From Cyanophora paradoxa CCMP329 (Eukaryota > Plantae > Glaucophyta): a DNA stretch of 64,000 bases. The stretch spans positions 99,275-163,274 of the forward strand of contig QPMI01000642.1 of the NCBI GenBank assembly GCA_004431415.1, written 5' to 3'. The notes under the pieces were generated by a model, which searched no databases, was not told where the DNA came from, and saw nothing but the letters and a program-made list of their open reading frames with translations. Below, piece by piece: positions 9,641 through 55,429 of the stretch (its first letter is position 1; every line of letters starts with the position of its first letter). A program made the translations under genes and the position numbers.

Positions 9641-9950
9641 GGGTATAAATACCAGAATTGATCCTGGAGGGAAATTCGATTTTCGCGCGACGCCCAGGGG
9701 GGAGCGATCGAAAATTTGAAAAATTTGATTGGTGATTTGGACGTGACTGATTCGTGACCATAACGTTACACGGACGTTACATTGATGTCACGTCAGGGTA
9801 TAAATACCAGAATTGATCCTGGAGGGAAATTCGATTTTCGCGCGACGCCCAGGGGGGAGCGATCGAAAATTTGAAAAATTTGATTGGTGATTTGGACGTG
9901 ACTGATTCGTGACCATAACGTTACACGGACGTTACATTGATGTCACGTCA
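9641..9950. repeat. Tandem duplication, 2 x 155 bp
   Basis: The unit gggtataaataccagaattg...gatgtcacgtca starts at 9641 and again at 9796. Confidence 0.9.
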
Positions 9951-15791: not shown

Positions 15792-16287
15792 TAGAGCTGT
15801 GCTCCCTGGGGGGGGCCGGGCCCAGCGGCCGCTGAAGCCCGGCGAGCGGCGCCTGTCGCTGGCCCGTCGCTGAGCTGGGGGTACCGCCAAAACCTGAAGA
15901 AAAACTGCTGAAAACCGACCGAAAACCTATCTGTTCCGTTTAGTTCATTTCGTACAAGCTTTTAAGACGCAAATGCAGATTTAATGCTTGGTTCCGCGAG
16001 CCATGCGTCAATTTCTGCGGGATAGAGGCCAGCTGCAGGCTGCTTTTGGGCGAAGCGGAGCGCCTGGATGCTCGAAAACAGTCGAAATTTAGCAAGATTG
16101 CTCGGCCACGCCGAGTCGTCGCCGACCTACGTCGACCATCAGATGAGAAAAAAGCGGGATGGAGCTTTTTTTGGCGCCTGTCAGCCATAAAAAACGCTGA
16201 GCGAGGAGGCGTCGCTGGCGGAAAACGCCAAGCGTAGCGGCCGCTGGAACCTCGCGAGCGAAGCGACAACCAGCGACCACAGCCCTA
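15792..16287. mobile_element. Non-autonomous hAT-like MITE, copy 2 (~496 bp)
   Basis: Same termini as 5754..6259 and a near-identical body, in the same orientation. Confidence 0.8.
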
Positions 16288-16446
16288 GTGCTCATACGTC
16301 GCGCACGTCAGCTATAGTCAAGGCACTGGCCCGGCCCGATCATTTCGAATTCTGCAATTCGATTTCCTACGGATAGACGCTCGTGACTTGCAGCGCGTTG
16401 ATATCGATATCGATCGACAAATAGCAGTACTAGTGCACCGGTCGAT

Positions 16447-29807: not shown

Positions 29808-30095
29808 GTCAAAATTTTCGGTCCACTAATTTCGGACTACGTATACGCTCTACGTACCGTACGCTCTACGGTAGTACGTATACGTGCCGGCTATATATAC
29901 GTAACGTATACGTACAGCTCGTATACGTAACGTATACGTAGTACGTACAGCTCGCGGCTACTATACTAGGCTAAAAGAATTTACACATTGCCACCGGTAC
30001 CTGTGTGACACCGTGGCACGTGCACCAGCTCGCTGCTCGACTTGGCCGCGGGTCACGCGCAATTGCAAGCTCGTTGATCAGTATTAGTTTCGAAG

Positions 30096-33000
30096 ATGGC
30101 CAAACGCGCAACACCGGCCAAGTGTTGGGCCAACGCTGACTGCTCGGAAACCCCGGCGCGAACGATCGACAAGTGCGCGCATGTGACACTGACTCAGTGA
30201 TCATGAGCGGCACGGCGCGATAATCGTGATTCACGATCATCCGGCTGCAGCTCCAAACTGATATCAATCGCGCAGGAGCGGTCTTGTGTCTGACATTTGC
30301 TCGAAATCCACGCACATTGCCGGGATTCAGCGCATGCCCCCCGGGTCGACTGGGAGTGGCACGTGCGTTCCAGCCAAGCTGCTTTGTTACACTTCGACGT
30401 ACGTCCTTTAGGACTAGATCTACTTCAATCACATGCCTAGAGGCTCATGATCATGCGCCGCTGCGCGTATGTTTAATCTGCGCATGCCCGATCAGCGATT
30501 GCTCCGGGACCTACTCTCTGGGAAAAGACCCTGCTTCGGGAAGCTTTGTCAGTCAGTAGTGCGTATATATATGTCTTTGTTTCTTGGATATCACGATCAG
30601 CATTATCAGGAGCACTGATGATACTTATATGCCATGATGCACCAGCCAACCGGAGACGATGTCCGACGCCGAAGCCTTCGCTCGCTGCCCTGTGCGGCTC
30701 TTAACTTTCTGTTGCATCAGATCTCGTATGTTCAGAGCACCTATCATAGTATAAATGACTTGAATCTGTCGTGCGGCGCAGGCCGGCACTTGGAGCTTCA
30801 AGAACGGCGACAGCGCCGTGTGCCACGCCGCTCATCCGTTCATCGAATGCTACAAGAGCCTCGATTGCTCCATGGCCGGCTCGGATCCGGAGTCGGAGCG
30901 CACCTACGTCCTGGGAAACGACCCACCGTGCGACACTGCCTTTCATGCAATAATCCCGCTTCAGCATGGTCGTAATCTGATCGTACATATGCGTGCACGG
31001 GGTATATATACATGTGCAGTTCAAAATGTCCCGACTCAGCGAATTCGTTCACGAAAGGCGGCGATACGACATGCAAGCCAGCCAACCTGCTCTGTTTCGG
31101 CGACTAGTGAGCCCTCGCATTTGCAATTGGCGTCAATTTCCAATAAACTCTGACCACCGCGGCTGACAGCAAATGCGGCGGCACGCCCTCGATTGGCAAA
31201 GACGCCGCGGGCAACGCCGTCGATTTTTAGTGCGTTTCCTTTTTCGATCGCGCACGTCCTTGCAATTGTCTCGAGCAGCAGTGCGCTCGCTAATGTAGTT
31301 GGATGCACATGTGGCCACTTTTCTAGATCTTAAAATCGCCTTAGGGGCGGCGCCGGCCCAGCTGGCGGCGGAATGCGAAGTCCTTCACATATGAATACCT
31401 GATCCTCGAGTTGCGCAGCCAGCCGGAGGGGGTCTCGGACGAGGAAGCCTGGGCCCGCTGTCCGGTGCGTAAACTTGCATATACGTATCGATATCCGCGG
31501 CATTGAAATTGCTATCCTTTGCACGCACGCCGTACATCGATCTTTAATTTTTTGCCTTGCGTATGCATATGAATGTTCTAATTACAAGCCGGTTTTCAGG
31601 GCGGCACGCTCTCTGTCCGGGACGCCGGTTCGAACGAGTGTCGCGCAAATGACGTGCATGAGGGCATTGCCTGGTGCTTTGATTTCCCGTAATCACTGCC
31701 TGTGCTGTGATGCCTTCAAATATGTCTTCAAATATCTATCGCTTTGGTCCTTCGCAGCTTTTCCGATTCGTACTGTAACTCGACCCCAACTTGGGCGTTC
31801 GACGAGTCCAAGTGCCCGGCCGGCACTGTAGCCGTGCGCTTTCCAGACGTCGACCTCCCAGTATTCGTAATTATATAATGTCTGATCATGATCATGATTC
31901 CAACTGTCTGCAGACTAGCGGCAAAATCGTCGATGATTTGGGCAATCTGACGATGGGGAAGTGCGCTGCGACCAGCCTTACCTGGCAAGTCTAAGCCCGG
32001 CGTCCAAATGGCAAGCCGAATGACTCTCGTGCTGAGGCTCGAGCTCGCGATCGGCTGGCGCAGTTTTTGGACCGCTAACTGCGTGGGCCCCACCAAAGTC
32101 ACGAGCTTCGAGAAGTAGTGCGCGCGTTCCGAATCCTATCGCTCGGTTGCTTTTCTCGCAATCGACATAGAGGCCGCTGCTGCGTTCACTTTGGCTGGCG
32201 GCGCAACGCCGTAACGGGAAAGACCTTCAACTTCGAATTCGGTTCCTGATCCTCAGGATGCGCAGCCAGCCGGAGGGGGTCTCGGACGAGGAGGCCTGGG
32301 CCCGCTGTCCGGTGCGTATACGCAGCTGCAGCATTACAATTGCAATTGCCGCAGTGCTTTGGGCTCCAGTGCATTGCATTTGAATGCTCTAATTTTCCGT
32401 TGGGTTTCAGGCCGGTACGATCGCTGTCAAGGAAGCCGGTTCGACCGAGTGCCGCACAGACGGCGTGCATGGGGGCACTGCCTGGTGCCCATGCTTGTGT
32501 TCATGTCTCATTATTTCTCCTTATCGCTGCCCTGTTATCTAATGCCTTCTGATATTTATCGTGTCGGTTTCGCGCAGCTTTAATGATCGGAACTGTAGCA
32601 AGACTCCCGGGAGTCCAACATGGGTGTTCGACAGGTCCAAGTGCCCAGCTGGCACTATGGCCGTACGCGTGCGCAATTTGCAAACATATACACACCAAGC
32701 ATGGCTCTGTAGAGATATCTGCAGCTGCCATCAACATGCATTGTACACACGTACGCAATTCAGGTCGCGTCGAAGGAAACTTTGGGGCAATGCGCGCCGG
32801 CAAAGCTTACTTGGTCAGCCTAGTATGCCGACTGGCGGACTCCTGCGCGCTGAGGTTGGCTCCGCGCAGCTACTCGAGCACCGATTGCCGGGGTGAAGGC
32901 ACGGCCACAAGCTTCGAGAAGTAGTGCGCTCGAGCTCGCGATCCCTTCTCTTAATCTTGCAACTGCGCATGAATGGCCCCTTCAAGGCTTTTCTTGCGAT

Positions 33001-36000
33001 ACACATCGTCATAGGGGCTGCTTCAGCAGCTGTGTTAAAAGTTCACCCCTGGCGGAGCAATGGGCACGACCTTCAATTTCCTGATCCTCGGGTTGCGCAG
33101 CCAGCCGGAGGGGGTCTCGGACGAGGAGGCCTGGGCCCGCTGCCCGGTGCGTTTACGCAGCTGCAGCATTAATTTCAATTGCCGCAGTGATTTGGGTTCC
33201 AGTGCATTGTATTTGGATGATCTAATTTTCCGTTGGGTTTCAGGCCGGTACGATCGCTGTCAAGGAAGCCGGTTCGACCGAGTGTCGCACAAACGGCGTG
33301 CATGGGGGCACTGCCTGGTGCCCATGCTTGTGTTCATGTTTCATGATATCTCCTTATCGCTGCCCTGTTATCTAATGCCTTCCGATATCTATCGTTTCGG
33401 TTTCCCGCAGCTTTATTGATCGGTACTGTAGCAAGACTCCAACATGGGTGTTCGACAAGTCCAAGTGTCCGGCTGGCACTATGGCCGTGCGCAATTTGCA
33501 AACATATACATATTAAGCATGGCTTTGTATAGATTTCTGCAGCTGCCATCAATATGTACACATGTACGCATTTCAGGTCAAGTCGAAGGAGTCTTGGGGG
33601 CGATGCGCGCCGGCAAAGCTTACTTGGTCAGCCTAGTATGCCGACTGGCGGACTCCTGCGCGCTGAGGTTGGCTCCGCGCAGCTATTCGAGCACCGATTG
33701 CCGGGGTGAAGGCACGGCCACAAGCTTCGAGAAGTAGTGCGCTCGAGCTCGCGATCCCTTCTCTTAATCTTGCAACTGCGCATGAATGGCCCCTTCAAGG
33801 CTTTTCTTGCGATACACATCGTCATAGGGGCTGCTTCAGCAGCTGTGTTAAAAGTTCACCCCTGGCGGAGCAATGGGCACGACCTTCAATTTCCTGATCC
33901 TCGGGTTGCGCAGCCAGCCGGAGGGGGTCTCGGACGAGGAGGCCTGGGCCCGCTGCCCGGTGCGTTTACGCAGCTGCAGCATTAATTTCAATTGCCGCAG
34001 TGATTTGGGTTCCAGTGCATTGTATTTGGATGATCTAATTTTCCGTTGGGTTTCAGGCCGGTACGATCGCTGTCAAGGAAGCCGGTTCGACCGAGTGCCG
34101 CACGAACGGCGTGCATGGGGGCACTGCCTGGTGCCCATGCTTGTGTTCATGTTTCATGATATCTCCTTATCGCTGCCCTGTTATCTAATGCCTTAAGCTT
34201 ACGATATCTATCGTTTCGGTTTCCCGCAGCTTTAATGATCGGAACTGTAGCAAGACTCCAACATTGGTGTTCGACAAGTCCAAGTGTCCGGCTGGCACTA
34301 TGTCCGTGCGCAATTTGCAAACATATACACACCAAGCATGGCTCTGTAGAGATATCTGCAGCTGCCATCAACATGAACGCACGTACGCGTACGCATTTCA
34401 GGTCAGGTCGAAGGAAACTGGGGGGCAATGCGCGCCGGCAAAGCTTACTTGGTCAGCCTAGTATGCCGACTGGCGGACTCCTGCGCGCTGAGGTTGGCTC
34501 CGCGCAGCTACTCGGGCATCTATTGCCGGGGTGAAGGCACGACCACAAGCTTCGAGAAGTAGTGCGCTCGAGCTCGCGATCCCTTCTCTTCAGCTTGCAA
34601 CTGCGCATGAATGGCCCCTTCAAGGCTTTTCTTGCGATACACATCGTCATAGGGGCTGCTTCAGCAGCTGTGTTAAAAGTTCACCCCTGGCGGAGCAATG
34701 GGCACGACCTTCAATTTCCTGATCCTCGGGTTGCGCAGCCAGCCGGAGGGGGTCTCGGACGAGGAGGCCTGGGCCCGCTGCCCGGTGCGTTTACGCAGCT
34801 GCAGCATTAATTTCAATTGCCGCAGTGATTTGGGTTCCAGTGCATTGTATTTGGATGATCTAATTTTCCGTTGGGTTTCAGGCCGGTACGATCGCTGTCA
34901 AGGAAGCCGGTTCATCCGAGTGCCGCTCAAACGGCGTGCACGGGGGCATTGCCTGGTGCCCATGCTTGTGTTCATGTTTCATGATATCTCCTTATCGCTG
35001 CCCTGTTATCTAATGCCTTAAGCTTACGATATCTATCGTTTCGGTTTCCCGCAGCTTTAATGATCGGAACTGTAGCAAGACTCCAACATGGGTGTTCGAC
35101 AAGTCCAAGTGTCCGGCTGGTACTATGGCCGTGCGCAATTTGCAAACATAAATTAAACATACCAAGCATGGCTCTTTAGAGATATCTGCAGCTGCCATCA
35201 ACATGTACACACGTACGCATTTCAGGTCGAGTCGAAGGAAACTTGGTGGCAATGCGCGCCGGCAAAGCTTACTTGGTCAGCCTAGTATGCCGACTGGCGG
35301 ACTCCTGCGCGCTGAGGTTGGCTCCGCGCAGCTACTCGAGCACCGATTGCCGGGGTGAAGGCACGGCCACAAGCTTCGAGAAGTAGTGCGCTCGAGCTCG
35401 CGATCCCTTCTCTTAATCTTGCAACTGCGCATGAATGGCCCCTTCAAGGCTTTTCTTGCGATACACATCGTCATAGGGGCTGCTTCAGCAGCTGTGTTAA
35501 AAGTTCACCCCTGGCGGAGCAATGGGCACGACCTTCAATTTCCTGATCCTCGGGTTGCGCAGCCAGCCGGAGGGAGTCTCGGACGAGGAGGCCTGGGCCC
35601 GCTGCCCGGTGCGTTTACGCAGCTGCAGCATTAATTTCAATTGCCGCAGTGATTTGGGCTCCAGTGCATTGTATTTGGATGATCTAATTTTCCGTTGGGT
35701 TTCAGGCCGGTACGATCGCTGTCAAGGAAGCCGGTTCGACCGAGTGTCGCACAAACGGCGTGCATGGGGGCACTGCCTGGTGCCCATGCTTGTGTTCATG
35801 TTTCATGATATCTCCTTATCGCTGCCCTGTTATTTTATGCCTTACGATATCTATCGTGTCGGTTCTCCGTGTACGTAGCTATGAGGATTGGAACTGTAGC
35901 AAGCCTCCAACATGGGTGTTCGACAAGTCCAAGTGTCCGGCCGGAACTACGGCCGTGCGTGTTTTGCAAATGAACATATATATATACCAAGCTTAAGCCT

Positions 36001-39000
36001 GGATCTGTATATATATATATATCTGCCATCAATTCGCGTTTCAGATCAAGTCAAACGACGTTAATCGGGGGTGGTGCACTCCGAACAAGCTTGTCTGGCA
36101 AGCCCGGAATGGCTATCCGATTGTGAACGATCGCGACTCTCATGCTGAGGCTGGGCCTGCACAGCTTTCCGGATAGATACTGCTCGGACGCCGCCACGGT
36201 CACGAGCTTCGAGAAGTAGTGCGCTCGCTCCTATATATATCGCGTGGTTGCTTTTCTTGCAATAGCCATTAGGGGCTGCTGCTGCATCAACCGTCAACGT
36301 TCACCCCCTGGCGGCGCAATGGGCGCAACCACAAACTTCCTGATTTTTGAGTTGCGCAGCCAACCGGAGGGGGTCTCGGACGAGGATGCCTGGGCCCGCT
36401 GCCCGGTGCGTCTACGCAGCATTTATATTGCTTGCTTTCAAGGCTTTGCGCGCACTCCATAGGCATATATCCCTGGGTTCCAGTGCATTGCATGTTGATG
36501 TTCTTATTTTCTGTTGGCCCTGGATTTCGAATTCAGGTCCGTACGATCGCTGTCAAGGAAGCCGGCTCGACCGAGTGCCGCACAAACGGCGTGCATGGGG
36601 GCACTGCCTGGTGCTCTGATTCCCTAATTTCACTGCCCAGTGCTCACATGCGCATGTCCTGGTCCTGCGCAGCTTTTCCACTCCGACATGTAGTAGCGAG
36701 ACTGCGCATGCAACTTGGGTGTTCGACAAGTCAAAGTGCCCGGTCAACACTGTCGCCGTGCGCGTTATGCGAGCACTCAATGCCAAGCACGGCCACGTAA
36801 AATGCTTCCTACATCCCGCGCCGCAGATCAAGTCAAAGGATGTGAATTCGGGGCAGTGCACTCCAAACAAGCTTGTCTGGCAAGCCCGGCATGGCTATCC
36901 GAACGCGTACGGCTCATTCGCTAAAGCTCGGCTTGCGCAGCTTCTCAAACGCGAACTGCTCGGGTGCCGCCACGGTCACGAGCTTCGAGAAGTAGTGCGC
37001 TCGCTCCTATCGCGTGGTCGCTCTTCTCGCAATTGCCATAGGTTCTGCTGCTGCGTTAGCCGTTAACGTCTCCCCCCGCGGCCGGCTGGCGACGCCACGG
37101 GAAAGACCTTCAACTTCGAATTCGGTTCCTGATCCTCGGGATGCGCAGCCAGCCGGAGGGGGTCTCGGACGAGGAGGCCTGGGCCCGCTGTCCGGTGCGC
37201 GTTCCCGTCAATCGATTTCTTGTCGTAGGATCGATATCCGGATCCGGAGGTACTGTTGTTAAGCTTGCTGTTGTTTTTGGATTGTACAGGGCGGTACTGT
37301 TTCGATTCAGGAAGCTGGCTCGGTCTGCAGCTCAAAATTGTATTCTGGGGTTGCCTGGTTCGTGGGTTTAGGGCTGCCGGTGCTCTGATTCCCTAATTTC
37401 ACTGCCCAGTGCTCACATGCGCATGTCCTGGTCCGGATCCTGCGCAGCTTTTCCACTCCGACATGTAGTAGCTCGACTTCGGCGACTTGGGTGTTCGACA
37501 AGTCAAAATGCCCCGCCGACACTGTCGCCGTGCGCATTATGCCATGCGAACACTTAATGCCGATTGCAAGCACGACCAATCACGAAGTTTTATCCGCACC
37601 ACGACAAATGCTTTCTTCATCCCGCAGATCAAGTCGAAGGATATAAATTCGGGAGAGTGCACTCCGAACAAGCTTGTCTGGCAAGCCGGCGCCCGGCATG
37701 GCTATCCGAACGCGTACGGCTCATGCGCTAAAGCTCGGCCTGCGCAGCTTCTCAAACGCGAACTGCTCGGGTGCCGCAACGGTCACGAGCTTCGAGAAGT
37801 AGTGCGCTCGCTCCTATCGCGTGGTCGCTCTTCTCGCACTCGCCATAGGTTCTGCTGCTACGTTAGCCGTTAACGTCTCCCCCCGCGGCCGGCTGGCGAC
37901 GCCACGGGAAAGACGTTCAACTTCGAATTCGGTTCCTGATCCTCGGGTTGCGCAGCCAGCCGGAAGGGGTCTCGGACGAGGAGGCCTGGGCCCGCTGCCC
38001 GGTACGTCTTTAAGTGCTCTCTTTAAATGTTTCTTGGCTCTCTATAGCTTGATTTCGATTTGCGATGCCTTCGAAATTCCGTTCAGTAAACGGCTGATTG
38101 AGGTTTTCATCGATGTATACGTTTACCCTCGTTTTAGGAGGGCACACGATCCGTCAAGGAAGCGCATTCAGGTGATTGCAAAAAAGACATCCATTTCGGC
38201 ACTTACTGGTAACTTTTAGTAATCATATAATCAGCACTTTCATTCATATAGGATCCGCATTAATCCGGAATCCTTCCCACACCATCGCGATCGTGCAGCT
38301 TCTCCAATCCAAACTGCGGAGGCTTCCCTAACTGGGTGTTCGACGCGTCACAGTGCCCGGCAGAGAGTGCTGCTGTGCGAGCCGCGGCCTGCTTTTTCGT
38401 TTCCCGACCGCTGCCCTGATCTCATGATCTCATTATCGCCCTTTCGTTTCGCATTCGATTCTTGCAGATAATCAAGCGAGGCGTGCCCGATGGCACATGC
38501 ACGAGCACCAAACTCACGTGGTATATATATATATATGCCCCATCCACTTTTGCCGTTCCGAGATATCGATACGCCGTGCACAGCTTCTCGAACGGCGACT
38601 GCTCCGGGAAGTCTGCAACAGGCAAAGACCCCGCTTCGGGCAACCCCGTCACTGAGTAGTGCGCAATCACTCGGGCCCCGTGGGCTAATCGATGAACTCG
38701 GGAGGACTTTGCACGGCTTAAGATAGAGCGGGAATATCCGTGAAGTACCAAGGCAAGAGATGCATCAGATCGGCCATCGGGTGCACGTGCACGTGTAGCT
38801 AATTATAATCATACAACACAAAGCTGTCCGATCGAACTGCATGCCCCTTGGCCTAGTACTGATCACAAGCGCACTACCACAGCCAACCGGAATCGATGTC
38901 CGACGCGGATGCGTTCGCCCGCTGCCCTGTGCGGCGTCTTTTTCCGCTCTCTACGTGCAGCTATTTATATAAACCCTCCCTCATTGCTCTTTTGCATTAC

Positions 39001-42000
39001 GCAGACTGGCACACTGAGCTTCAAGAATGGCGGCGCTGCCGAATGTCACGCTGCTCATCCGTTCATTACGTGCTACAAAGATACCAGTTGTCAGGTTCCT
39101 GGAATTTCCGTCTTGGACAGGTCAACGTGTCCGCCCAGCACTCAAGCCGTCCGCGTGCGTTTGGAACGTCGAACGACCTTGAACGATGACGTTGACGTTT
39201 GATTCTCCTCAAGCTAATCTCTGCACATGCGCATGCCGATTTCGCAGACGATATCAGCGCAAAGCCAGAGTTCCTGCGCTCCCTTTTGTCGTGTTGACGA
39301 AGTGCATGGGGAAACTGCCTGGTGCTCAGAGTTTTCAATTTAAGTGCCCAGGGCTCTACTAGTACTGCGCAGGCCTTGTAATATATATAAAGTATACGTA
39401 TACGATATTTCCGAAGCTCTTATAACTAACGTCTTGGTCCTCTGCAGCTTTTCCACTCCGACATGTAGCTCGACTTCGGCGACTTGTGTGTCCGACAAGT
39501 TGAAGTGCCCGGCCGACACTGTAGCCGTGCGTGTTATGCGAGCACCCAGAGCCAAGCGCGGCTTATAGAATGAAGTATTATCCGCCCACGAAAAATGTTT
39601 CCTACATCCCGCGCCGCAGATCAAGTCAAAGGATGTAAATTCGGGGCAGTGCACTCCAAACAAGCTTGTCTGGCAAGCCCGGCATGGCTATCCGAACGCG
39701 TACGGCTTATTCGCTAAAGCTCGGCTTGCGCAGCTTCTCAAACGCGAACTGCTCGGGTGCCGCCACGGTCACGAGCTTCGAGAAGTAGTGCGCTCGCTCC
39801 TATCGCGTGGTCGCTCTTCTCGCACTCGCCATAGGTTCTGCTGCTACGTTAGCCGTTAACGTCTCCCCCCGCGGCCGGCTGGCGACGCCACGGGAAAGAC
39901 GTTCAACTTCGAATTCGGTTCCTGATCCTCGGGATGCGCAGCCAGCCGGAGGGGGTCTCGGACGAGGAGGCCTGGGCCCGCTGTCCGGTGCGCGTTCCCG
40001 GCAATCGATTTCTTGTCGTAGGATCGATATCCGGATCCGGAGGTACTGTTGTTAAGCTTGCTGTTGTTTTTGGATTGTACAGGGCGGTACTGTTTCGATT
40101 CAGGAAGCTGGCTCGGTCGCTTGCAGCTCAGAAGTGTATTCTGGGGCTGCCTGGTTCGTGGGTTTAGTTTGTTTGCGGCTGCTACCGCGTCGACGTCGTT
40201 ATATATAGTTTAACGAACGTTCCTGCGCAGCTTCTCTGGATTGAATGCGGGTTGCGAGCGTGATCCTAAGTGGGTTTTCGACAAGTCGAAATGCCCGGCC
40301 GACACTGTAGCCGTGCGCGTTATGCGAGCACTCAATGCCAAGCACGGCTTATAAAATGAAGTTTTATCCGCCCACAAAAAATGCTTCCTACATCCCGCGC
40401 CGCAGATCAAGTCAAACGACGTTAATCGGGGGTGGTGCACTCCGAACAAGCTTTTATGGCAAGCCCGGCATGGTTTTCCGATCGCGAACGACTTTCATGC
40501 TGAGGCTGCTGGGACTGCACAGCTATCCGGACAAATTCTGCGTGGGCCCCGCCACGGCCACGAGCTTCGAGAAGTAGTGCGCTTGCAATTGCTCCTATCG
40601 CGTGGTCGCTTTTCTTGCAATAGCCATTAGGGGCTGCTGCTGCATTAACCGTTAATTATAACGTTCACCCCTGGCGGCGCGATGGGCACGTCCTTCAACT
40701 TCGAATTCGGTTCCTGATCCTCGGGTTCCGCAGCCAGCCGGAGGGGGTCTCCGATGAGGAGGCCTGGGCCCGCTGCCCGGTACGCAGCATCAATATTGCT
40801 TGCCATTGTGTGCACGCTATAAATCGACCTTAGTATGCGTAACTTGCATTTCAATGCGTACGGTCAAATCCTAATATTAATCAAGCCGGTTACGTTTACA
40901 GGGTGGCACGCGCGCATATCGGGAGGCTGGTTCGACCGAGTGCCGCGCAAACGACGTGCATGCGGGCACCGCATGGTGCATATAATTGCATTCAAAATTC
41001 GTGATTTCGAAATTCCCGTTATCGCTGCGCATGCCCTATACGTATACACTGATGCCTTACAATATCTCTCGCTGGTTCTTCGCAGCTATAAAAATGGGGA
41101 CTGTAACTGGACTTCAACATGGGTGTTCGACAAGTCCAAGTGTCCGGCCGACACTATCGCCGTGCGCATTATGCAAACGAACATATACCAAGCATGGACC
41201 TATCTGCCTTCAACTCGCGTTTCAGATCAAGTCAAAGGACTTTAATCTGGGGGAGTGCACTCCGAACCCGAACAAGCTTGTCTGGCACGCCCGGCATGGC
41301 TATCCGATCGCGAATTCGAACGCCTCTCATGCTGAGGCTGGGACTGCGCAGCTTCTCAAACGCGAACTGCTCGGGTGCCGCAACGGTCACGAGCTTCGAG
41401 AAGTAGTGCGCTCGCTCCTATCGCGTGGTCGCTCTTCTCGCACTCGCCATAGGTTCTGCTGCTACGTTAGCCGTTAACGTCTCCCCCCGCGGCCGGCTGG
41501 CGACGCCACGGGAAAGACGTTCAACTTCGAATTCGGTTCCTGATCCTCGGGATGCGCAGCCAGCCGGAAGGGGTCTCGGACGAGGAGGCCTGGGCCCGCT
41601 GCCCGGTACGCGTTCCAAGCAATCTGGATTTCGAGGTGTTAAGCTTGGTTTTCGTAATTATAAACGTTTTCGGATTGTACAGGGTGGTACCCTTTCGATC
41701 AAGGAAGCTGGCTCAGCCGATTGCAGCTCAAAAGTGTATTTTGGGGCTGCCTGGTTCGCGGAAGTTGTTTTTCTGCTGCCACCGCGCCGCTGTTTTTATT
41801 CGATCGCCCACACCCGCGCACGAACGTCACTTAGTTATAACAAACGTTGCTGCGCAGCTTCCCCAAATACAATGCGGGCTGCCGGCACTTCCTAGCTTCT
41901 TCGTGGGCTTTCGACAAGTCAAAATGCCCCGCCGACACTGTCGCCGTGCGCATTATGCCATGAGAACACTTAATGCCGATTGCAAGCACGACCAATCACG

Positions 42001-43117
42001 AAGTTTTATCCGCCCACGACAAATGCTTTCTTCATCCCGCAGATCAAGTCGAAGGATATAAATTCGGGAGAGTGCACTCCGAACAAGCTTGTCTGGCAAG
42101 CCCGGCATGGCTATCCGAACGCGTACGGCTCATGCGCTAAAGCTCGGCCTGCGCAGCTTCTCAGACGAGAACTGCTCGGCCGCGGGTCGCGTCACGGCCA
42201 CGAACTTTGAGAAGTAGTGCGCTCGCTCCTATCGCGTGGTCGCTTTTCTCGCAATCGCCATAGGAGCCGCTGCTGCCATCACTATAATTATAAGCGTTCA
42301 CCCCTGCTGGCGGCGTCATGGGAAAGACCTTGAACTTCGGTTCCTGATCCTCGAGTTGCGCAGCCAGCCGGAGGGGGTCTCGGACCAGGAGGCCTGGGCC
42401 CGCTGTCCGGTACGTCTTTAAATGCATTGTTTAATGTTTTTTGGTTCTCTAGATCTATAGCTTGATTTCGATCTGTGGCGCCATCCATTCATTGGACGGC
42501 TGATTGAGGGTTTTCATCGATACCATCGTCTTAGGCGGGCACACGAGCCGTCAAGGAAGCGCATTCAGCTGAATGCAAAAAGGACATCCATTTCGGCACT
42601 TCCTGGTAATCGGCACTATCATTCATGTTTGATCCGCATTGATCCGGAATCCTTACCGCACCCTCGCGATCGTACGCGTGCAGCTACTCCGATTTGAACT
42701 GCCAGAAAAATCGAACGTGGGCATTCGACGCGTCGCAGTGCCCGGCAGAGAGTGCAGCTGTGCGAGCCGCGGCCTTGAACGATAACGTTATCGTTTGATT
42801 CTGCAAAAGCTGACCTCTGCACATGCGCATGCGGACCCGGGAATTCGTAGACGATGGCGGTTTCAGGCCCCCTTTCGGGTTCTTGCGTTCCCTTGAGCTC
42901 TCCAATTCTCGACGACGAGATGGCTGTCATCGATATCGATATTGCAGAGGACGCGGCATTCGAAGTCGAGGCTCGCCTTGCGCTTCTAATTTCTTTTGTG
43001 CCGCAGCTGCAGCTGCAGTTCCCTTTCCAAACTCGGCTTACATGTACGTGCACATGTCGCGCATGCGCAGGATCCGGAGCTTGGCTCGGATTACGCCGAA
43101 TTCGAAGCCAGCTCTGA
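30096..43117 (+). CDS. Large micro-exon gene: 15 tandem ~100-aa Cys-rich modules (roughly 1500+ aa), function unknown
   Basis: A 46-nt exon (QPEGVSDEEAWARCP or a variant) starts at 30646, 31419, 32266, 33101, 33914, 34739, 35563, 36360, 37149, 37956, 38883, 39942, 40734, 41560 and 42364. In most units it is followed by four more phase-conserved exons. In the units I translated, spliced exons are stop-free and indels are multiples of 3. The 5' start and final exon are uncertain. Confidence 0.8.
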
Positions 43118-46100
43118 CGCGCTATGCCAAGACAATGCGTATGAGGTGCGGAAATATATTAATTTTATATGACTCGATTCAATGATTTTAACTCGACTTC
43201 TTCAAAGCAGTCTGGCCTCTAGGGTCTTGGAATGCGGATGATCATGAGGCGCGGCCTGCTTGCAATTGGTGCACGCGGAGAGCTCTGGTACATGTGGAAG
43301 GACGTCATCCCACGGCCCGCGGCCACACGCTGTAGCTAATCAGACTATCATACCAAATTGTAAAAAAGATATCAGACTGTACATGTGCACGTGTGAAGGG
43401 GAAGTGCATGCGCAATATTAATGCCGGCGCCGAGGAGGACAGGAGACGGGTTGGCTAGACTGCCGGCTCCTAGCCTCCTATGGGCGCTGGGCGGGGGGGA
43501 GGCGGGGGAGGGGGCAAGGGGGGGGGGGGGGGGGAGGCGGGATCGGGATCGGGAGGAGGAGGCGGGGGGGAATGGGGGGGCGGGATCGGGAGGAGGTGGG
43601 GGGAGGGAAGGGGAGGAAGGGGGTGCGGGGTGCTCGTGGGGGGGGGGGGGGGGGGGGGGGAGGCGGGGGACGACCTGCAGCTGGCCATGGGCCGGGAGGC
43701 CCCCCAGAAAGGGCCCGGGGGTGGCCATGGGTGGCATGGGGCGGGGGGACCGGCACGCGGACGGAGATGAGGGTTTATAATTCAATGATTAAGGCCCACG
43801 GCCAGCCTGGCAGGGGGACCTGGGAGCTCAAGGGGCGCGACTCGGCGATGCAGATCTTTTCTAGCTAGGCAGAGCGGGGGCTTCCTATATATCTTTGGAC
43901 CGTTGTCTTCTCCAAATCTGCGCGGATGGTCCTTAATATTAACTAGCAGACCGCCCCCGGCCATGTGCAAGTGCGGCAAGTGCGGGCCGCGCGCGGAGGT
44001 GCAAGGGGGGGTACTTGTACAAATTCAGGGTTGGAATACAGGGTACAGGGGCGGCGGGTCGGGAAGCAGGCGGACCGGCAGGTGGCGCCGGCGCCGGGCC
44101 CTGCACACAGCCTAGGCCTGCGCAGAGCCGAGGCGTCAGCTTGTCCCGGACAGCGGCGGCGCCGGGGCAAGGCCCAACGGCGGTGGCCGGGTGAGGTGCA
44201 CGTGTGCAGCAGCGGCGGCGGGGCGAACCTGAAGTCGACGAAGCCGAGGCAGCGGGCGGGGCGGCGGAGCTCGCCCCGCCGCGGACAGCGGCGGCGCGGG
44301 GGCGAGGTCCAACCCGGCGCGGAGTACTAGTACTTGGAGCGCGGAGCAGCGCCGCCATCATCTGCTACGGAGCGCCGGCCGCGGGTCAAGACACGCGCGC
44401 GTGGCGCCGAGGCGTGCACGAGGCGCCCGAGCGGGCAAGCGCGTCGTAACCGCGCGGGCAAGCTGAAGCAGCGGGTAGAGCGGAGGGCGGGAGAGCGGCC
44501 ACGGGTGGACAGCCTGCGCAGCGCCGAGGCGTCAGCGCGCCCGCGGCGAGGCCCAGGGCGCGAGGCGGGCCTTGCCGCAACGAGTGCACTTGCGAAGCGA
44601 AGTGCTTGCCCCAACGAGTGCATTTCCCGCCCGGATATCGACTGGCGCCATTCCCCCCTGCTCGAGTCTCGATCCGACGGAAACTCGCCGAGTCGCAGGA
44701 GCTGTTTTTTCCGGCGCCCGGCCCGGTACAACAGGTACGTATACTTGACGCGGCCTAGCGCTAGCGGGCCGCGCGCTGCTTCTCGATCCCAGGTATGTAT
44801 GACAGAGTTTGTAGAGCGCATTGAGAGCAATCAGGAGCACGTGGTCCGGCGCATATAGCGATAGCTGGTGAGGAGCGAGCTGGACATGTTTGCGCAGCCC
44901 CGCCAGTGCATTTTTTTCCGCCGCTCGCAGCGGCTACGATGCGATCACACCTATACGAGAGTGCATGCAAAGAATCGCATCTTACAAAAATTGCTAACAC
45001 AGAAAGTACGCAGCAGCAATTCACCAGGGGAGCAAGGGAGGGGTACCCCCCCTTGCAATTTAACTAGGGGCCCGGCCGCGATTTTCGCGCCGGGGGTGCA
45101 AGGGGGAATCCGGGATCTTGAGAAAGAGTCCTAGTGGCACGCACATGCGTGGGGCAGAACGACCCCGGCCCAGTGCGCGCGGCAGGTTAACGTTGGAAGT
45201 GTAAAGATAAACACAGAGTATGATTGAAAAAATGCTAAGTTATAACTTATTACTTAAGACGCAAGTGGACGTCGACACTTCGAAAAAAACTCAGCTAGCC
45301 GCTAGTAGCACGGCCGCCCGAGCCTCGAGGTCCAAATCCTATTGGCCCGTCCCCGATCTGCGCCATCGCAAATGAGAACACATGTACAAGCAGTCGACTC
45401 GGCGTTCCGCGTTGAGAGTCTTGAGACCGCGCTCGGCGGGCGACGGCGGGGAGGATTTGCATTAGCACACAACAACAACTACTAGGAGTTTCACATCGCT
45501 CAGCTTATCTCTCCGACTAAATAACACTGGGGACCGTCGAGTGCTGTGCTCTGTCTACGATTGGTTGCGAGGTTTTGCTTCTAAGTACCTACCTACTTAC
45601 ACAACCGGCCTAGTTATAATATCATCTATAACTAGGGCTAGATTTGGTAATGAAGGGAGAGAAGGTGAAGTAGAGGGGCTGAGTTGAGAGGGAGAAAGGG
45701 GAAGCTTGATGCGCACGCCGTCGGCCCCCATTGGAGCCGCCGACTCTGGCCGGATTACGCCGGCACGCCTCAGGGCACCAAATCCCCCCCGCCTCCCTCC
45801 GCCTCCAGCCGCCCCAGTCCTCACCCCGCCCCGTCCCCCCTTACCCACCACTGGTTCATGAGCCCGCGGCGGAAACATTGAGGGACTGGCGCTCTGCCAG
45901 CCATCGACGTCATACTGCCTTTGCAGCCTGTCAAGAGCAACTGACAGAAAGCCAATATGCTTTGTCAACGGCACCCAAAGGAAGGTAGAATGGTGTGGTG
46001 GTGCCTTTTAAGGCAAAAGGAAGAAGCCATGCGGGAGCTACTAGTGCTGACCGAGGCAAGAAACTAGTGCAAGGGACTACTCGCTGATCAGAAGGCAAAT

Positions 46101-50200: not shown

Positions 50201-51163
50201 TTTCGCCTTTAGCTTTGAGTCGCGTCGAGCTCGGAACGCGGTCTATCATGATCATTTCGATATCGCTGTCGTATCCGTCTCTCCCCTTACCGCGCCACCG
50301 ATTTCGATTCTACGGTGAACGCCCTTCGTGGACGATTCGACGCGGTGGGGCGAGGGCCTGCAGGCGTAAGTGTCGCGTGCCGCGATTCCCTCGGATTAGG
50401 CTAGCCGGTAGTCTATGCGTAGCCGCTAGCCCTAGTCTAGTGCTATCGAGCGGCTAGCTCTAGCACTCTCTGTATTCTGACTTAGCGCCGGGCGCGACTC
50501 CGTTTGGGGGTACGCGATCCCTGGACGGGTACACTTGTGAATAGACCACTTGTGCTCCCAGCTACAGCCACAGCCCGTGCGTGACCGCACGGACGCTGCA
50601 CCGGGTGGGAATCCTCTCATCCGACAGGCGCCATCTGCTCACGGAGCTAGAACCCCGATCATCAGCGACCCGTCATCAGCAACCGACCCAGCTCGGCGAC
50701 CGCGGCTCAGCCGGCGCGCAGGTAGACCTCAGTAGAGGTCGTGGGTCGCTTCTCGCGCCCCGCCTGCGCCGCTCCGGGCTGATCCGCAGTTGGCGACCGA
50801 ACATTCTGGAAAGAACCAGAACTTAGTCCTGCGGATCCAGGAACGCGCGCGAATACCGAGGGATCCCCGTCCCGATCGGATCGTCGCCGTTTCCTGAGCG
50901 AGCTGCGTGCGAGCCCGTGGGATCATTCCTGATCGGTCGCTAGTCACTCGCCGCGACGCCAGCCTTCTCCGGCTGTTGCGATCGTGCTGGACAAGACGAA
51001 GAGCGATCGGATCGACGGCTGAGGCGTGCGCGCCCGAGCTGTCTCCAGAATCGCTGCAGCCGAGCTTGCTCGCCGCTGCTGTGGACCACGACGGCCTCGG
51101 ATCTCGAGCGAGGCACATTCCCTCACGGACTAGCGTGACTTTACGTCGCCGCTTGACCTGAGA

Positions 51164-52908
51164 ATGTCCTCGGGGACCGGAGCCTCCGCGGAGTTCGTCG
51201 TCCGGGCCGCGCACGCGCGTGGCGCCGCCGACATGGACTCTATGAGCGGATCAAATGTTTTGCAATGGATCCAGAGCCTGCCGAAGCTGCCGCCGGGCAG
51301 CGATCAGCGCACGGTTCAGGACCACCTCCGCCAGTTCGAGAGCTGCGCGAGCATGAGCAAGGACTTGCTCAGTGTCTCGCCGACTGCACACATTGAAGTG
51401 CAGAAGCGAACTGGGTGGGCTCTTCTCGGCACGCTAGATCACGGGCACCCCGTGCGCCAGAACATCTCGCTGTTCCAGAGCGCCGAGCAGATCGACACTC
51501 GCGAGCTCGAGAAGCTGAAGGCGTACCGGGCCGAGCGTGCGCGCACGAGCACGGCGGACCCGCGAGACGTCGCTATCCTCGAGACGCTCGACGAGAAGAT
51601 CGCGCAAGCCGAGGAGGGCTTGCAGCGGACCGCCCTCACGGTCACGTACACCGCGATCAGGCGCCGTCTCGAAGATGACGCCGAGATGCGGAACCCTGAC
51701 CGGTACAAGGCGCTCCTCGACCTGCCGCACGTGGGCGAGGCGCCGGAGGCGTTCTACCGCCGAATCCTCGACTTGAGCATCATCCCGGAGTGCCGCGAGG
51801 CGCACGAGACGCCGCTCATGGCACTCATGCGCCACGCGGGCCAAATGCTCAAGCGCCGCACTCGCAATCAGTGCCGCGATTTCGAAGATTCCGAGATTTC
51901 GGACACCGATCGCCGGCACATGATGACGAACTTCTCCACGGCTCGGAAGATCTACGACGAGCTGTCGCAGAAGATCGCGGACCGCGAGATCACGGGACCC
52001 TCTGCGGTCATCGACCTTGTAACCAAGCGCACCAATGAACTGGGCGCCTGGGACGTCGATATCTCTAAAGTCCCCGGTTCGGCCTTGGTGCTGGGAGCGC
52101 GCGGAACGCCGCTGCAGGCGCCCACGGCTGCCTCGCGCACGCCGCAGAGCGCGCCGCCGATCACGCACACGCCAGCTGTCCCCGCCGTCACCTCGCGCTC
52201 GAACGCGGGCGCCGGCGCGGGCACGCGCATCATGCTCGCGACGACGGTGTCGGAAGCCGAGCTCGCGGAGCTCGAGGCCGCCGCTTACGGATTGGACGCG
52301 GACGACGCCGAGGATCAGACCACTGAGGTCATCTCGTTCCTGCAGTTCATTGCTCAGGACGAACCCCTCGTCGTAGTCCGCGCGCTCTACCCGTCGGCGT
52401 CCGCACCGCCGCCCCGCCTCGACGACCCGGTCTATCAGCAGAAGATCAAAGACTTCCTGAAGGCCCGGGGCCTCCCCGAGAAGCCCCGGCGGCCGTGCCA
52501 CTGCGGCGGGTCGCACTACTCGTTTGAGTGTCAGACCAACCCGCGGCCCCTGCCCGAGTGGTCGGCGATCAACCCGGCCAAGCGCCGCGGGCCAACGGGC
52601 GCGGGCGCCGGTGACCCGAAGCGCCGGTTCTACCCCGCGCCGCAGGGCGGGAACGGCCGCTCGAGCCCCCCGCCTCAGCCGGCCGCAGGAAGCCGGGCGT
52701 GCTACAACTGCGGCAAACCCGGCCACCTGGCCGCGTCTTGCCCGGCCCAGGCGCAGACGCTCGAGGCCGCCGTACGCCGCGCGCTCGCGGACCACGCCGC
52801 CGCCGCGGCCCGCCGCCTGCGACGCCGGCGCCCTGGGCCGACCCCAACGCCTTCATGATCGCGCGCGCCATGCTCGAGCAGGCTGCCCGCGGTGGCGCCG
52901 CAGGCCCG
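51164..52908 (+). mobile_element. gag: Retrotransposon gag-like ORF (CCHC knuckle), interrupted at its 3' end by the next element
   Basis: Intronless 564-aa ORF with CYNCGKPGHLAASC (CX2CX4HX4C) and a second Cys/His cluster CHCGGSHYSFEC. No pol is visible in the window. Confidence 0.72.
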
Positions 52909-55429
52909 TTTACGCCTCGCTTCATTCGAATGCAGAAGACCTAGCTATCTTACGCCTGGCACTACTTAGCTAGATGCACGGGATAGCGCATCGGTTGGGC
53001 CCTGAGGTACGGCAGCTCTATATGGCTGCTTTCCCGGGAACCACGTATCATAATACGTTGGCGATCGACCAGGGCGGATCGCCGTATGCCATTCCGGCCT
53101 CGCCCTTGCGAGTTCCGGAACAAGAACTCTCCGGGGTAAGCGCGCTAGGCGCCTGTACCCCGGGAGGGCCGTTGCGGGCCGAGACGGTGTACCCCGCTCG
53201 GGGTACTCCGCTCGGGCCGTCGCGGGGCCGATCGGGGTACCCCGCTCGGGGTACACTTGATCGGGGCCGCTCTGACGCCGTACCCCTCTCCGGGGTATGC
53301 GTTCGGCCTCGGGCCGCGCCTTGTGGGGCCGGTTGGGGCGAACGGCGTACCCCGGGGAGGGGTACGCGGTTTCTTCCGGGTTCGGGGATCCGAAGCCGGG
53401 TACCGCCGCCGGAGGCCGCGGGGGTGAGCGTAGCGAACGCAGCACGAATGCAGTACCCCCTACCACACGCGTAGCGTGCCCGTCGTCCGCAGACGACCAT
53501 GAGACCAAGGAGTCGTACAACATACGACAACCGCGGCTCATCCAAAAACCAACAGGGTTCCGAATCATGCGCGAAGTCTCCCCCCGCGCCGGGGCGGTAG
53601 ACTCAAAAACCAGCAAGTTACTAAGTTACCGCGGGAAAAACAAAACCGCGTAACGGTCATGCGCGCTGGACCCCGGCTCGGCACCCGCGGGTCCAGAGGA
53701 AAACAGGGTACAACCCAGCGGGAAAAACTCGAGATTCTCCACGAAGCCGCGCGACTGTTTCTTGGGGGCGCGCTGGACCCCGGCCCGGCGCCGGCACAAG
53801 TGGGTCCAGCGGACGCGCGTGGAAACACGAATGACGACCGGTACACCGAGTCTGCGCGGTTCGTGCCCGAATCTTCGACGGAACCATTGCAAATTACCAC
53901 GGATCAGCTGTGCACAACCACGTCCGCGCTGGTGGTCGGCACCGAGCGGGAGTAACATCCGGAACCGTGTGCACAGGAGACGGCAAGGAACCACGTATTA
54001 TAATACCCTCGGCGAACGCTGGCGCTGGTCGCCGTGTGCATCGCCTTTTCGCGCGAACTTTTCGCGGTGCCGGGGCTCGCTGGGTGGCGAGGATCGGCGC
54101 CCCGGAAGGAAAAATCGCGGGGAGGTGGGCGGGAGCGATTTCGCTTCGCCGCTGGTCGCTTCGTGGCCTGGGGCGGCCGCGAGCGAAGCTGGGCGTGAAG
54201 GGAAACCCCGAATCAGCGTACCCCCCCGGAGCTCGGCGGCTTCAAGCCTGCCGGCTCGGCCCAACGGCTAGCTCAGCTAGTTCCTTGCGGGACGCTCGCT
54301 GCAGCCTGCTGCTTATCCCGTGCTCGCCTCGCGCCGCTCCGCGGCTAGCGAGTCGCTCAGCTCTTTCGTGCCTGGCGCTCGGCTTCGGTCTTCTTTGTTC
54401 GCATTCCGTCGGCGCAAAACTCGATTTACGCATTGAGAGCGCAAATCCCGATTTACGCCTCGCTTCATTCGAATGCAGAAGACCTAGCTATCTTACGCCT
54501 GGCACTACTTAGCTAGATGCACGGGATAGCGCATCGGTTGGGCCCTGAGGTACGGCAGCTCTATATGGCTGCTTTCCCGGGAACCACGTATCATAATACG
54601 TTGGCGATCGACCAGGGCGGATCGCCGTATGCCATTCCGGCCTCGCCCTTGCGAGTTCCGGAACAAGAACTCTCCGGGGTAAGCGCGCTAGGCGCCTGTA
54701 CCCCGGGGAGGGCCGTTGCGGGCCGAGACGGTGTACCCCGCTCGGGGGTACTCCGCTCGGGCCGTCGCGGGGCCGATCGGGGTACCCCGCTCGGGGGTAC
54801 ACTTGATCGGGGCCGCTCTGACGCCGTACCCCTCTCCGGGGTATGCGTTCGGCCTCGGGCCGCGCCTTGTGGGGCCGGTTGGGGCGAACGGCGTACCCCG
54901 GGGAGGGGTACGCGGTTTCTTCCGGGTTCGGGGATCCGAAGCCGGGTACCGCCGCCGGAGGCCGCGGGGGTGAGCGTAGCGAACGCAGCACGAATGCAGT
55001 ACCCCCTACCAAACAAGAGTCAGGTCACAGCCAGCCAGAATAGCATACATAGGAACAAAGTGAGCAAGAGGGCGAAGGTTGTTTCGCCCTCCCCCTTCCC
55101 CCCTCTCCTTCCTCCTTCCCTGCCACCCCCGTGTCCCAGACGCTAGGTCTCCCTCTCCCAGCGCACTGCGCTGTAGGAGGAACGGGCAGAGAGCGTGAAT
55201 TCGGACAAACAACATGGGGCCGGGGCAGGCCAAGACGCCCGAGGTAACGAGCCGGCACAGAAGGCTGGGGGTTCTCGCCGTACCCCTGTGGGACAGTCGA
55301 CGAACCGGGGCGGCGCTTGATAGTTGCGCCGCCAGATCCCCGCCGCCGACAAGTCATGCTGGGCGGTGCGGGCCAGGGGCGCGCTTACGGGTGGGGGGCG
55401 GGCAAGGCGGTCGCCCTGCGCGTCGGCGT

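What the first reader, a model, noticed from the sequence alone, without database searches (positions are those of the whole stretch)
32266..35930. Codon-focused hypervariability among otherwise near-identical cassettes
Seen: in the youngest block of units, the ~180-nt intron and exon a are almost identical. Yet exon d reads VASKETLGQC / VKSKESWGRC / VRSKETGGQC / VESKETWWQC (codon 2 GCG/AAG/AGG/GAG; codon 7 TTG/TGG/GGG/TGG), exon e reads YSSTDC vs YSGIYC, and exon c reads FNDRNC / FIDRYC / YEDWNC. The changes are mostly non-synonymous, hit the same codons repeatedly and often introduce W or Y. Inference: diversifying selection, or a targeted diversification process, acting on a ligand-binding surface.
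Basis: partly seen in the sequence, partly recalled or inferred. Interest (0 to 1): 0.78.

Follow-up and report, generated by a model that had tools for sequence, protein, structure and literature searches.

The report
Shuffled cysteine-repeat gene in glaucophyte alga
An alga, likely Cyanophora paradoxa, carries a spliced gene predicted to encode about 31 four-cysteine protein modules whose copies are patchworks of one another, likely through DNA exchange between repeats; the variable spots are real, but they change only about as fast as neutral DNA or somewhat faster, so selection for new binding surfaces is possible and unproven.

Summary
The variants are in the sequence as quoted, and the exon d variants recur in independent sequencing runs, so they are not assembly errors. 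The 'cassettes' are consecutive exons of one gene (30096-42759+; 76 exons in frame, 1,651 aa, 129 Cys, no stop), a five-exon, two-module block repeated about 15 times. One low-depth RNA-like run shows spliced junctions. The only true relatives found are two Cyanophora paradoxa proteins; no Pfam family, solved structure or usable fold. Units are recombinant mosaics (p=0.001). The inference of diversifying selection is only partly supported. In the four young units 21 non-synonymous against 10 synonymous changes give dN/dS about 0.67; the intron beside exon d is also highly divergent (17%); 1 of 5 site-model tests reached p<0.05; loop codons run at omega 1.4-2.2 (not significantly above 1) against 0.24-0.29 for the framework. 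Runs dated 2012-2024 show the same variants, which argues against an ongoing targeted mutator. Best reading: an undescribed, lineage-specific cysteine-repeat protein with a conserved framework and tolerant loops, reshuffled by unequal crossover and gene conversion.

The parts
30096..42759 (+). Spliced cysteine-repeat gene, modelled part: 76 exons, 1,651 codons, 129 Cys, about 31 four-Cys modules of 43-62 aa; GT-AG (68) and GC-AG (8) introns of about 56-227 nt
   Evidence: All exons chain in one frame with no stop; GC3 71%; spliced RNA-like contig over three exons; 34% identity over about 900 aa to C. paradoxa P0001 and 49% over 192 columns to P0005
30096..31232 (+). N-terminal exons and unit U1 (older, divergent modules); start ATG at 30096 inferred; no signal peptide
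   Evidence: P0005 aligns from its residue 3 to model residue 5; in-frame stop just upstream; hydropathy scan
31419..32117 (+). Unit U2 (exons a-e)
32266..32923 (+). Young unit U3: exons a 32266-32311, b 32411-32484, c 32578-32662 (9-nt in-frame insertion), d 32764-32813, e 32870-32923
   Evidence: exon d letter at codon 7 seen in 3 of 4 runs
33101..33736 (+). Young unit U4: a 33101-33146, b 33244-33317, c 33411-33486, d 33577-33626, e 33683-33736; divergent tract from the intron before exon d to exon d codon 9
   Evidence: exon d letters seen in 1 of 4 runs
33914..34561 (+). Young unit U5: a 33914-33959, b 34057-34130, c 34230-34305, d 34402-34451, e 34508-34561 (4 replacements, 0 silent changes, three of them at 34515-34523)
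   Evidence: exon e variant not verified in reads
34739..35385 (+). Young unit U6: a 34739-34784, b 34882-34955, c 35055-35130, d 35226-35275, e 35332-35385
   Evidence: exon d held with 0 differences in 4 of 4 runs
35563..36218 (+). Unit U7, a recombinant: exons a-b(-c) of the young type, exon d 96% like U12
   Evidence: a-to-b splice junction and retained b-c intron in the RNA-like run
32786..33284 (+). Homogenised tract (3' half of exon d, short intron, exon e, long intron, exon a and on): exact matches of 239-411 nt between young units
   Evidence: contig depth 3.3-4.0 times single copy in three runs, matching four copies in the assembly
35226..35252 (+). Most variable stretch, exon d codons 1-9 (same offsets at 32764, 33577, 34402): 8 replacements and 1 silent change among U3-U6
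36360..42759 (+). Units U8-U15, older and mosaic (for example U9 is 99% like U12 after exon a, 98-100% like U14 around exon d and 100% like U13 in exon e); U11 is irregular, with a fused b+c exon at 39005-39154
   Evidence: RNA-like contig joins 41560-41604, 41682-41752 and 41857-41943
42851..43222 (+). Probable acidic C-terminal exons (42851-?, 43071-43145, short last exon); borders unresolved; no membrane helix in any candidate chain
   Evidence: 1,389 candidate chains, highest 19-residue hydropathy 1.43; inference only, no RNA cover

Best explanation
The region is the youngest part of one long spliced gene, likely of Cyanophora paradoxa, predicted to encode a chain of about 31 four-cysteine modules whose framework is conserved and whose loops vary, and whose units are patchworks likely made by unequal crossover and gene conversion. 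Shown: the exon chain, three to four splice junctions, the mosaic units, purifying selection on the framework, and the exon d variants in reads. Inferred mechanism: a five-exon, two-module block was duplicated head to tail; misaligned copies keep exchanging tracts, most often across the conserved stretch from the end of exon d through exon e and exon a, which stays 99-100% identical; the stretch from exon c to the first half of exon d has been overwritten less recently and keeps older differences in intron and exon alike; replacements there survive because they fall in tolerant loops near the second to fourth cysteines (omega about 1, perhaps up to 2). Inferred function, low confidence (about 0.4): a disulfide-bonded, beads-on-a-string secreted or surface protein (coat, flagellar hair or mucocyst content) that binds or adheres through many slightly different modules.
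For: 76 exons in frame without a stop, 129 Cys in a regular four-per-module pattern; spliced contig; same two-module pattern in two C. paradoxa proteins. Nearest neighbour switches along almost every unit, PHI-like test p=0.001 on 12 units and 114 informative columns, exact tracts up to 411 nt. Intron divergence among U3-U6 runs 0.07, 0.09, 0.17, 0.00, 0.01 along the unit, highest next to the variable codons. Pairwise pN/pS 0.41-1.02 over 6 pairs; M0 omega 0.42 (all units) and 0.69 (young); 4 of 5 site tests not significant; the observed M1a-M2a statistic 2.6 lies in the simulated null range 0-5.0 and below 7 of 8 simulations with 10% of sites at omega 3. Same variants in runs dated 2012-2024. 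Purifying but relaxed horizontal evolution of protein repeats is the general rule (PMC5120217, abstract and section 8 read).
Against: M8a-M8 on all units gives 3.98 (p=0.023; 0 of 6 null simulations reached it), with about 9% of sites at omega 2; loop-class omega is 1.35 and 2.19; 8 of 21 replacements cluster in 8 codons; U5 exon e has 4 replacements and no silent change inside an almost invariant tract. Raised intron divergence beside a selected site is also what selection against conversion would leave (recalled theory). Gapped loop columns and three poorly alignable exon rows were dropped before the tests, which may hide signal. The secreted-protein step conflicts with the lack of a signal peptide in the model and in P0001 and P0005.
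Confidence: 0.6

Rival explanations
1. Diversifying selection on binding loops: exchange homogenises the scaffold while selection keeps and adds differences at a few exposed codons, as in fungal NWD WD40 repeats, giving the alga a repertoire of binders for microbes, viruses or mates.
For: Loop omega 1.35 and 2.19 against framework 0.24 and 0.29; M8a-M8 p=0.023; exon c codon 8 posterior 0.95 over all units and exon d codon 2 posterior 0.95 in the young block (naive Bayes under non-significant models); clustering p=0.006-0.04; U5 exon e; a second gene copy at single-copy depth with yet another exon d letter.
Against: 4 of 5 site tests not significant; power 7 of 8 for 10% of sites at omega 3; whole-unit dN/dS 0.67; exon d replacement rate not significantly above its own silent sites plus flanking introns (8/39 vs 16/158, p=0.10); W/Y gain p=0.11; no signalling domain, signal peptide or membrane helix found.
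Confidence: 0.28
2. The units are alternatively spliced cassettes (Dscam-like), so that each transcript uses a subset and the variable exons diversify isoforms.
For: Exon phases repeat (0-2, 2-0, 0-2, 2-2, 2-0), so skipping a whole unit or module would keep the frame; one RNA-like contig retains an intron.
Against: Like exons are not clustered side by side; they alternate a-b-c-d-e, and the one multi-exon contig joins neighbouring exons in genomic order, including the previous unit's exon e.
Confidence: 0.05
3. A targeted mutator or programmed rearrangement (DGR-like, somatic-hypermutation-like or VLR-like) rewrites the variable codons in living cultures.
For: 11 of 21 replacements start from A (expected 25-30%, p=0.007-0.024).
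Against: The excess falls to p=0.055 when only columns that vary in older units are counted and is absent from introns (6 of 32, expected 19%). Of 7 variant places listed in four runs dated 2012-2024, 6 are letters of the window's own units and the seventh is shared by 4 of 4 runs on a contig of the second gene copy. No reverse transcriptase family among 24 long ORFs scanned (spliced genes could be missed).
Confidence: 0.03
4. The differences are long-read assembly errors or a mis-expanded repeat.
For: The published C. paradoxa assembly is from PacBio RSII reads (PMC6704402, passages); whether this window is that assembly is not known. The U5 exon e variant was not seen in contigs.
Against: All four exon d versions are found in short-read contigs at single-copy depth; depth of the shared tract is 3.3-4.0 times single copy; every change keeps the frame and no stop arises.
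Confidence: 0.03

Closest known systems
Fungal NWD/HNWD NLRs with high-internal-conservation WD40 repeats (Podospora het-d/e/r; PMC1805685 and PMC13449251, passages read)
   Same: Near-identical tandem repeats within one gene, homogenised by unequal crossover or conversion, with variation concentrated at a few positions; paralogs that may exchange repeats.
   Different: There, four codons are under strong, significant positive selection in 69 repeats and the repeats sit behind a NACHT ATPase and a death domain. Here selection is at most weak, the repeat is a four-cysteine module split over five exons, introns are exchanged along with exons, and no signalling domain was found.
Ectocarpus ROCO-LRR and NB-ARC-TPR genes with exon shuffling (PMC3341825, passages read)
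   Same: Algal gene, repeats encoded by short exons, shuffled, variable residues proposed as ligand contacts.
   Different: One exon per repeat, spare and inverted repeats in introns, known LRR/TPR folds and GTPase or NB-ARC domains there; here five exons per two modules, no inverted copy among the array's self-matches, unknown fold, no such domain.
Generic internally repetitive proteins evolving horizontally (PMC5120217, abstract and section 8 read)
   Same: New repeat copies diverge under relaxed purifying selection with some positive selection; dN/dS between repeats below 1.
   Different: The module itself matches no Pfam family, PDB sequence or ESM Atlas cluster and was found only in C. 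paradoxa.
Cys-rich CPxG-repeat surface proteins of protists and algae (ephrin-receptor-like/GCC2-GCC3 repeats, Chlamydomonas mastigoneme protein MST1; recalled, from no call)
   Same: Long chains of small cysteine modules that begin with Cys-Pro-x-Gly.
   Different: Cysteine spacing differs, and Pfam finds no such family in P0001 or P0005; those proteins have signal peptides. A lead only.

Membership tests
HIC-repeat NLRs (NWD type) | Repeats 80-100% identical, exchanged between copies | tested here: met
   U3-U6 85-100% identical by segment; mosaic units, p=0.001
HIC-repeat NLRs (NWD type) | A few codons under significant positive selection | tested here: inconclusive
   1 of 5 site tests p<0.05; loop omega 1.35 and 2.19, p about 0.06-0.07
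HIC-repeat NLRs (NWD type) | NACHT or NB-ARC ATPase plus N-terminal effector domain | tested here: not met
   The 1,651-aa model is cysteine modules from end to end; no Pfam family in 6 exon pieces or in P0001 and P0005
HIC-repeat NLRs (NWD type) | Repeat-number polymorphism between wild strains | not testable with these tools
   The runs laid match the window without differences in unique parts and are short-read contigs
Ectocarpus-type exon-shuffled LRR/TPR receptors | One exon per repeat, LRR or TPR fold, ROCO or NB-ARC domain | tested here: not met
   Five exons per two modules; no LRR, TPR, GTPase or NB-ARC hit
Ectocarpus-type exon-shuffled LRR/TPR receptors | Shuffling of repeat-coding exons | tested here: met
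   Nearest neighbour changes from exon to exon
Diversity-generating retroelements | Reverse transcriptase and an invariant template repeat beside the target | tested here: not met
   No RT family in 24 long ORFs; no copy of the module outside the gene in the window by tblastn
Diversity-generating retroelements | Changes almost only at adenines | tested here: not met
   11 of 21 replacements, 2 of 10 silent changes and 6 of 32 intron changes start from A
Dscam-type mutually exclusive exon arrays | Clusters of like exons of which one is used per transcript | tested here: not met
   Exons alternate a-e; the RNA-like contig joins neighbours in order; one contig only
Secreted or surface disulfide-repeat proteins | Signal peptide and/or membrane anchor | tested here: inconclusive
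   None in the model, P0001 or P0005 or in 1,389 candidate C-terminal chains; gene ends have no RNA cover, so a leader exon could be missing
Secreted or surface disulfide-repeat proteins | Cysteines paired as disulfides in a compact module | tested here: inconclusive
   Cys invariant in aligned exons; folds pLDDT 30 and 59

The most novel reading that the evidence does not exclude
Cyanophora has its own germline binder repertoire: a small family of genes built from a new four-cysteine module, in which exchange of exon blocks within and between paralogs reshuffles loops that are under diversifying selection, giving a glaucophyte counterpart of fungal HIC-repeat and brown-algal exon-shuffled recognition proteins on an unrelated scaffold.
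Probability: 0.2. Interest if true: 0.7.

Novelty: new member of a known kind. Interest (0 to 1): 0.33.

Why it matters
The evolutionary pattern (conserved scaffold, variable loops, exchange between repeats) is well known, so the likely reading is of modest interest: an undescribed, lineage-specific cysteine module and a clean example of exon-and-intron block exchange in a glaucophyte. If the loops prove to be under diversifying selection and to bind microbes, viruses or partner cells, it would be a first candidate recognition repertoire in glaucophytes and a new small disulfide scaffold with natural variable positions; both can be tested with long reads from a few strains and one expressed two-module unit.

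Tried and rejected
Whole-genome look-up: no genome is held for this window, so paralogs could not be counted. Word-based protein searches: fused exon 39005-39154 against longer proteins, 0 of 10 candidates; P0001 found only itself among 7,994 candidates; P0005 against longer proteins, 0 of 864. Profile search of 1.84 billion representatives gave 8 hits; 6 were dropped as unrelated repeat proteins (LRR, Ig-like, HYR-like). Pfam: 0 families for 6 exon pieces. ESM Atlas: no usable hit in two calls. PDB sequences: 0 hits at E<=1. Viral contigs: 0 of 24 pattern matches confirmed. AlphaFold2: P0001 alone pLDDT 30; one 50-aa exon with an 8-row alignment pLDDT 59; fold searches on that model found nothing, so variable sites could not be mapped on a structure. 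Mixed exon alignments were misaligned by MAFFT and not used; A3, used for the profile search, has the second half of two rows misplaced. The first gene model had wrong borders at irregular exons (fixed in 13), and 14 exon-e-type donors were moved by 3 nt by analogy with one junction seen in the RNA-like run. Exon a as a special silent-site 'anchor': dS 0.94 against 1.5-2.5 for the other exons on 10 units but 2.4 against 2.1-4.3 on all rows, so only weakly supported. No run on record as RNA was listed as holder; X20 is a guess with depth 2-6. Absence of the U4 letters in 3 of 4 runs was not read as a deletion, because contigs drop bubbles and shared-tract depth stays near four copies. The supplement of PMC6704402 could not be read; it may hold an annotation of these genes.
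Full report
What is there. Self-comparison shows an array of roughly 830-nt units from about 30600 to 42800. Splice-site and motif scanning resolves it into short exons that chain in one frame: 76 exons from an ATG at 30096 to 42759, 68 GT and 8 GC donors, 1,651 codons, no stop, 129 cysteines, GC3 71%. One run guessed to be RNA holds a 216-nt contig that joins 41560-41604, 41682-41752 and 41857-41943, within 1-2 nt of the predicted exons, with a loose end from the previous exon e; a second contig joins exon a to exon b at 35705 and retains the next intron; two contigs of depth 2 are unspliced (5 records laid). The loose end placed the exon e donor 3 nt further on, and I applied that to 14 like donors by analogy. 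Neither gene end has RNA cover.

Source and relatives. No genome is held. A profile of six exon pieces against 1.84 billion representatives gave 8 hits; 2 of 8 are true relatives, both Cyanophora paradoxa EukProt proteins without functional names: P0001 (908 aa, 72 Cys, 34% identical to the model over about 900 columns) and P0005 (186 aa, 49% to the N-terminus). Earlier scan notes on other pieces of this genome name the same alga. The species is reported as probably haploid, with many short introns (PMC6704402, passages read). Three DNA runs carry, beside the window's own sequence, a second diverged copy at equal depth, which is then likely a paralog rather than an allele. No Pfam family, PDB sequence, Atlas cluster or viral relative was found. 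Searches for Cyanophora with cysteine-rich and tandem repeat (2 papers), with immune, receptor and repeat terms (18 papers, 12 listed) and with cell-covering terms (64 papers, 12 listed) listed no title or abstract on such a gene; only listings were seen, and the supplement of PMC6704402 was unreadable.

The observation. All quoted codons and peptides are correct. Among U3-U6, exon a is 98.9% and the long intron 99.4% identical. Short-read contigs confirm exon d: U6 with 0 differences in 4 of 4 runs, the U3 letter in 3 of 4, a piece with U5's four differences in 4 of 4, the U4 letters in 1 of 4, each at single-copy depth. The shared tract has 3.3-4.0 times single-copy depth in three runs, as four copies predict. 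The U5 exon e variant was seen in 0 of 4 runs, but contigs drop bubbles; exon c was not checked.

Is it more than chance? Over 100 codons of U3-U6 the minimum count is 21 replacements on 228 sites and 10 silent changes on 72 sites: ratio 0.67; six pairwise ratios 0.41-1.02; exons d plus e 12 against 2, ratio 1.95, p=0.29. Introns are very uneven: 7/97, 8/93, 15/90, 0/56 and 2/177, the highest lying directly before the variable codons. Eight replacements fall in an 8-codon window (p=0.006, 0.018 or 0.041 by null model); a triple-hit codon has chance 0.11-0.35; W or Y gains are 3 of 21, p=0.11. Codon models (my own implementation, one tree per exon, gapped columns and three unalignable exon rows left out) give omega 0.42 over 12-14 units, M1a-M2a p=0.28, M7-M8 p=0.07, M8a-M8 p=0.023 with 9% of sites at omega 2.0; in the young block omega 0.69, M1a-M2a p=0.36, M8a-M8 p=0.08. 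Simulations detected 10% of sites at omega 3 in 7 of 8 runs and at omega 6 in 8 of 8, with 0 of 8 false positives; 0 of 6 null runs reached the observed M8a-M8 value. A loop class drawn by position after seeing the data has omega 1.35 (all) and 2.19 (young) against 0.24 and 0.29 for the rest; tests against 1 give 3.25 and 3.61 on one degree of freedom. So strong array-wide positive selection is unlikely, and weak or recent selection is open. Exchange within exons can inflate these tests. The sharpest local signal is U5 exon e: 4 replacements and none silent in a tract otherwise 99.4% identical to U6 (p=0.001, post hoc); three lie within 7 nt and could be one short conversion from a paralog.

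How it most likely works. Units are mosaics: U7 is young-type in exons a-b and 96% like U12 in exon d; U8 is young-type in exon b and 98-100% like U11 in exons d-e; U9 follows U12, then U14, then U13; an incompatibility test on 12 units gives p=0.001; exact tracts reach 411 nt. This is shown. Inferred: head-to-tail duplication followed by unequal crossover and conversion, which most recently overwrote the stretch from late exon d through exon a and left the stretch from exon c to early exon d older. The framework (cysteines, exon a, the ends of exons c and e) is held by purifying selection, and the loops near the second to fourth cysteines accept replacements and small indels. A targeted mutator is unlikely (0.03): of 7 variant places in runs dated 2012, 2019 and 2024, 6 are the window's own letters and one belongs to the second copy in all four runs; an excess of changes from A (11 of 21) fades when variable columns are the baseline (p=0.055) and is absent from introns. 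Rare variants cannot be seen in contigs.

Function. Regular cysteine spacing without CxxC pairs and 13 N-glycosylation sequons suggest a disulfide-bonded secreted or surface protein; the alga has mucocysts and two kinds of flagellar hairs (PMC6704402, passages), which are candidate sites. Against this, no signal peptide was found in the model, P0001 or P0005, no convincing leader exon upstream, and no membrane helix in any candidate C-terminus. Folding failed, so 'ligand-binding surface' is untested.

Comparison. It works most like the concerted, loop-variable repeats of fungal NWD NLRs (PMC1805685 and PMC13449251, passages) and the exon-shuffled repeats of Ectocarpus (PMC3341825, passages), but it belongs to neither: no ATPase, GTPase, LRR, TPR or WD40 domain, and no clear positive selection. 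Relaxed purifying selection among repeats with some positive selection is the general pattern (PMC5120217, abstract and section 8). It is not a DGR target and not a Dscam-type array on the tests above.

Verdict. Observation partly confirmed; interpretation partly supported. A new member of a known kind: an undescribed glaucophyte cysteine-repeat family evolving by repeat exchange. Interest 0.33. The boldest reading not excluded, a selected binder repertoire on a new scaffold, has probability about 0.2 and would deserve 0.7.

Noticed in passing
window 30009-43000, contigs of runs X1, X3, X8 and X2, X19: A second, diverged copy of this gene is present at single-copy depth in every DNA run laid; its exons align while many introns do not, and it has an exon d letter absent from the window. 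Likely a paralog and a possible donor of conversion tracts.
   Followed up: partly
window 55683-60727: GC-rich tandem array, 139-nt period, 36 copies, 86% matches; long ORFs over it have no Pfam hit.
   Followed up: no
window 51134-55011: 574-codon ORF with a zinc knuckle (PF00098, E 1.7e-6) followed by two 99% identical 560-nt direct repeats at 52905-53465 and 54447-55011; 54135-54369 recurs at 63771-64000. Looks like a gag-like retroelement remnant.
   Followed up: no
window 5754-6261 and 15792-16289: 508-nt direct repeats, 96% identical, 10 kb apart, LTR-like; four long ORFs between them had no Pfam hit.
   Followed up: no
window 38883-39526 and 30646-30927: Unit U11 carries an exon a and a fused b+c exon of the same type as the first unit U1, plus an extra exon with two additional cysteines: the array seems to restart here, as if two gene copies had been joined.
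   Followed up: partly
window 31914-42095, donors after exon d: Eight GC-AG introns, all after exon d, inherited with the repeat; the young units U3-U6 have GT at the same place.
   Followed up: no
window 9641-9950, 8032-8406, 61522-63146: Exact 155-nt tandem duplication, short AT-rich duplications and a complex imperfect repeat cluster.
   Followed up: no
window 33412-33429 and 36166-36183: Exon c of U4 and exon e of U7 reach the same four-residue loop ending (Asp-Arg-Tyr-Cys) with different codons, at homologous positions of the two module types; possible convergence, one case only.
   Followed up: no
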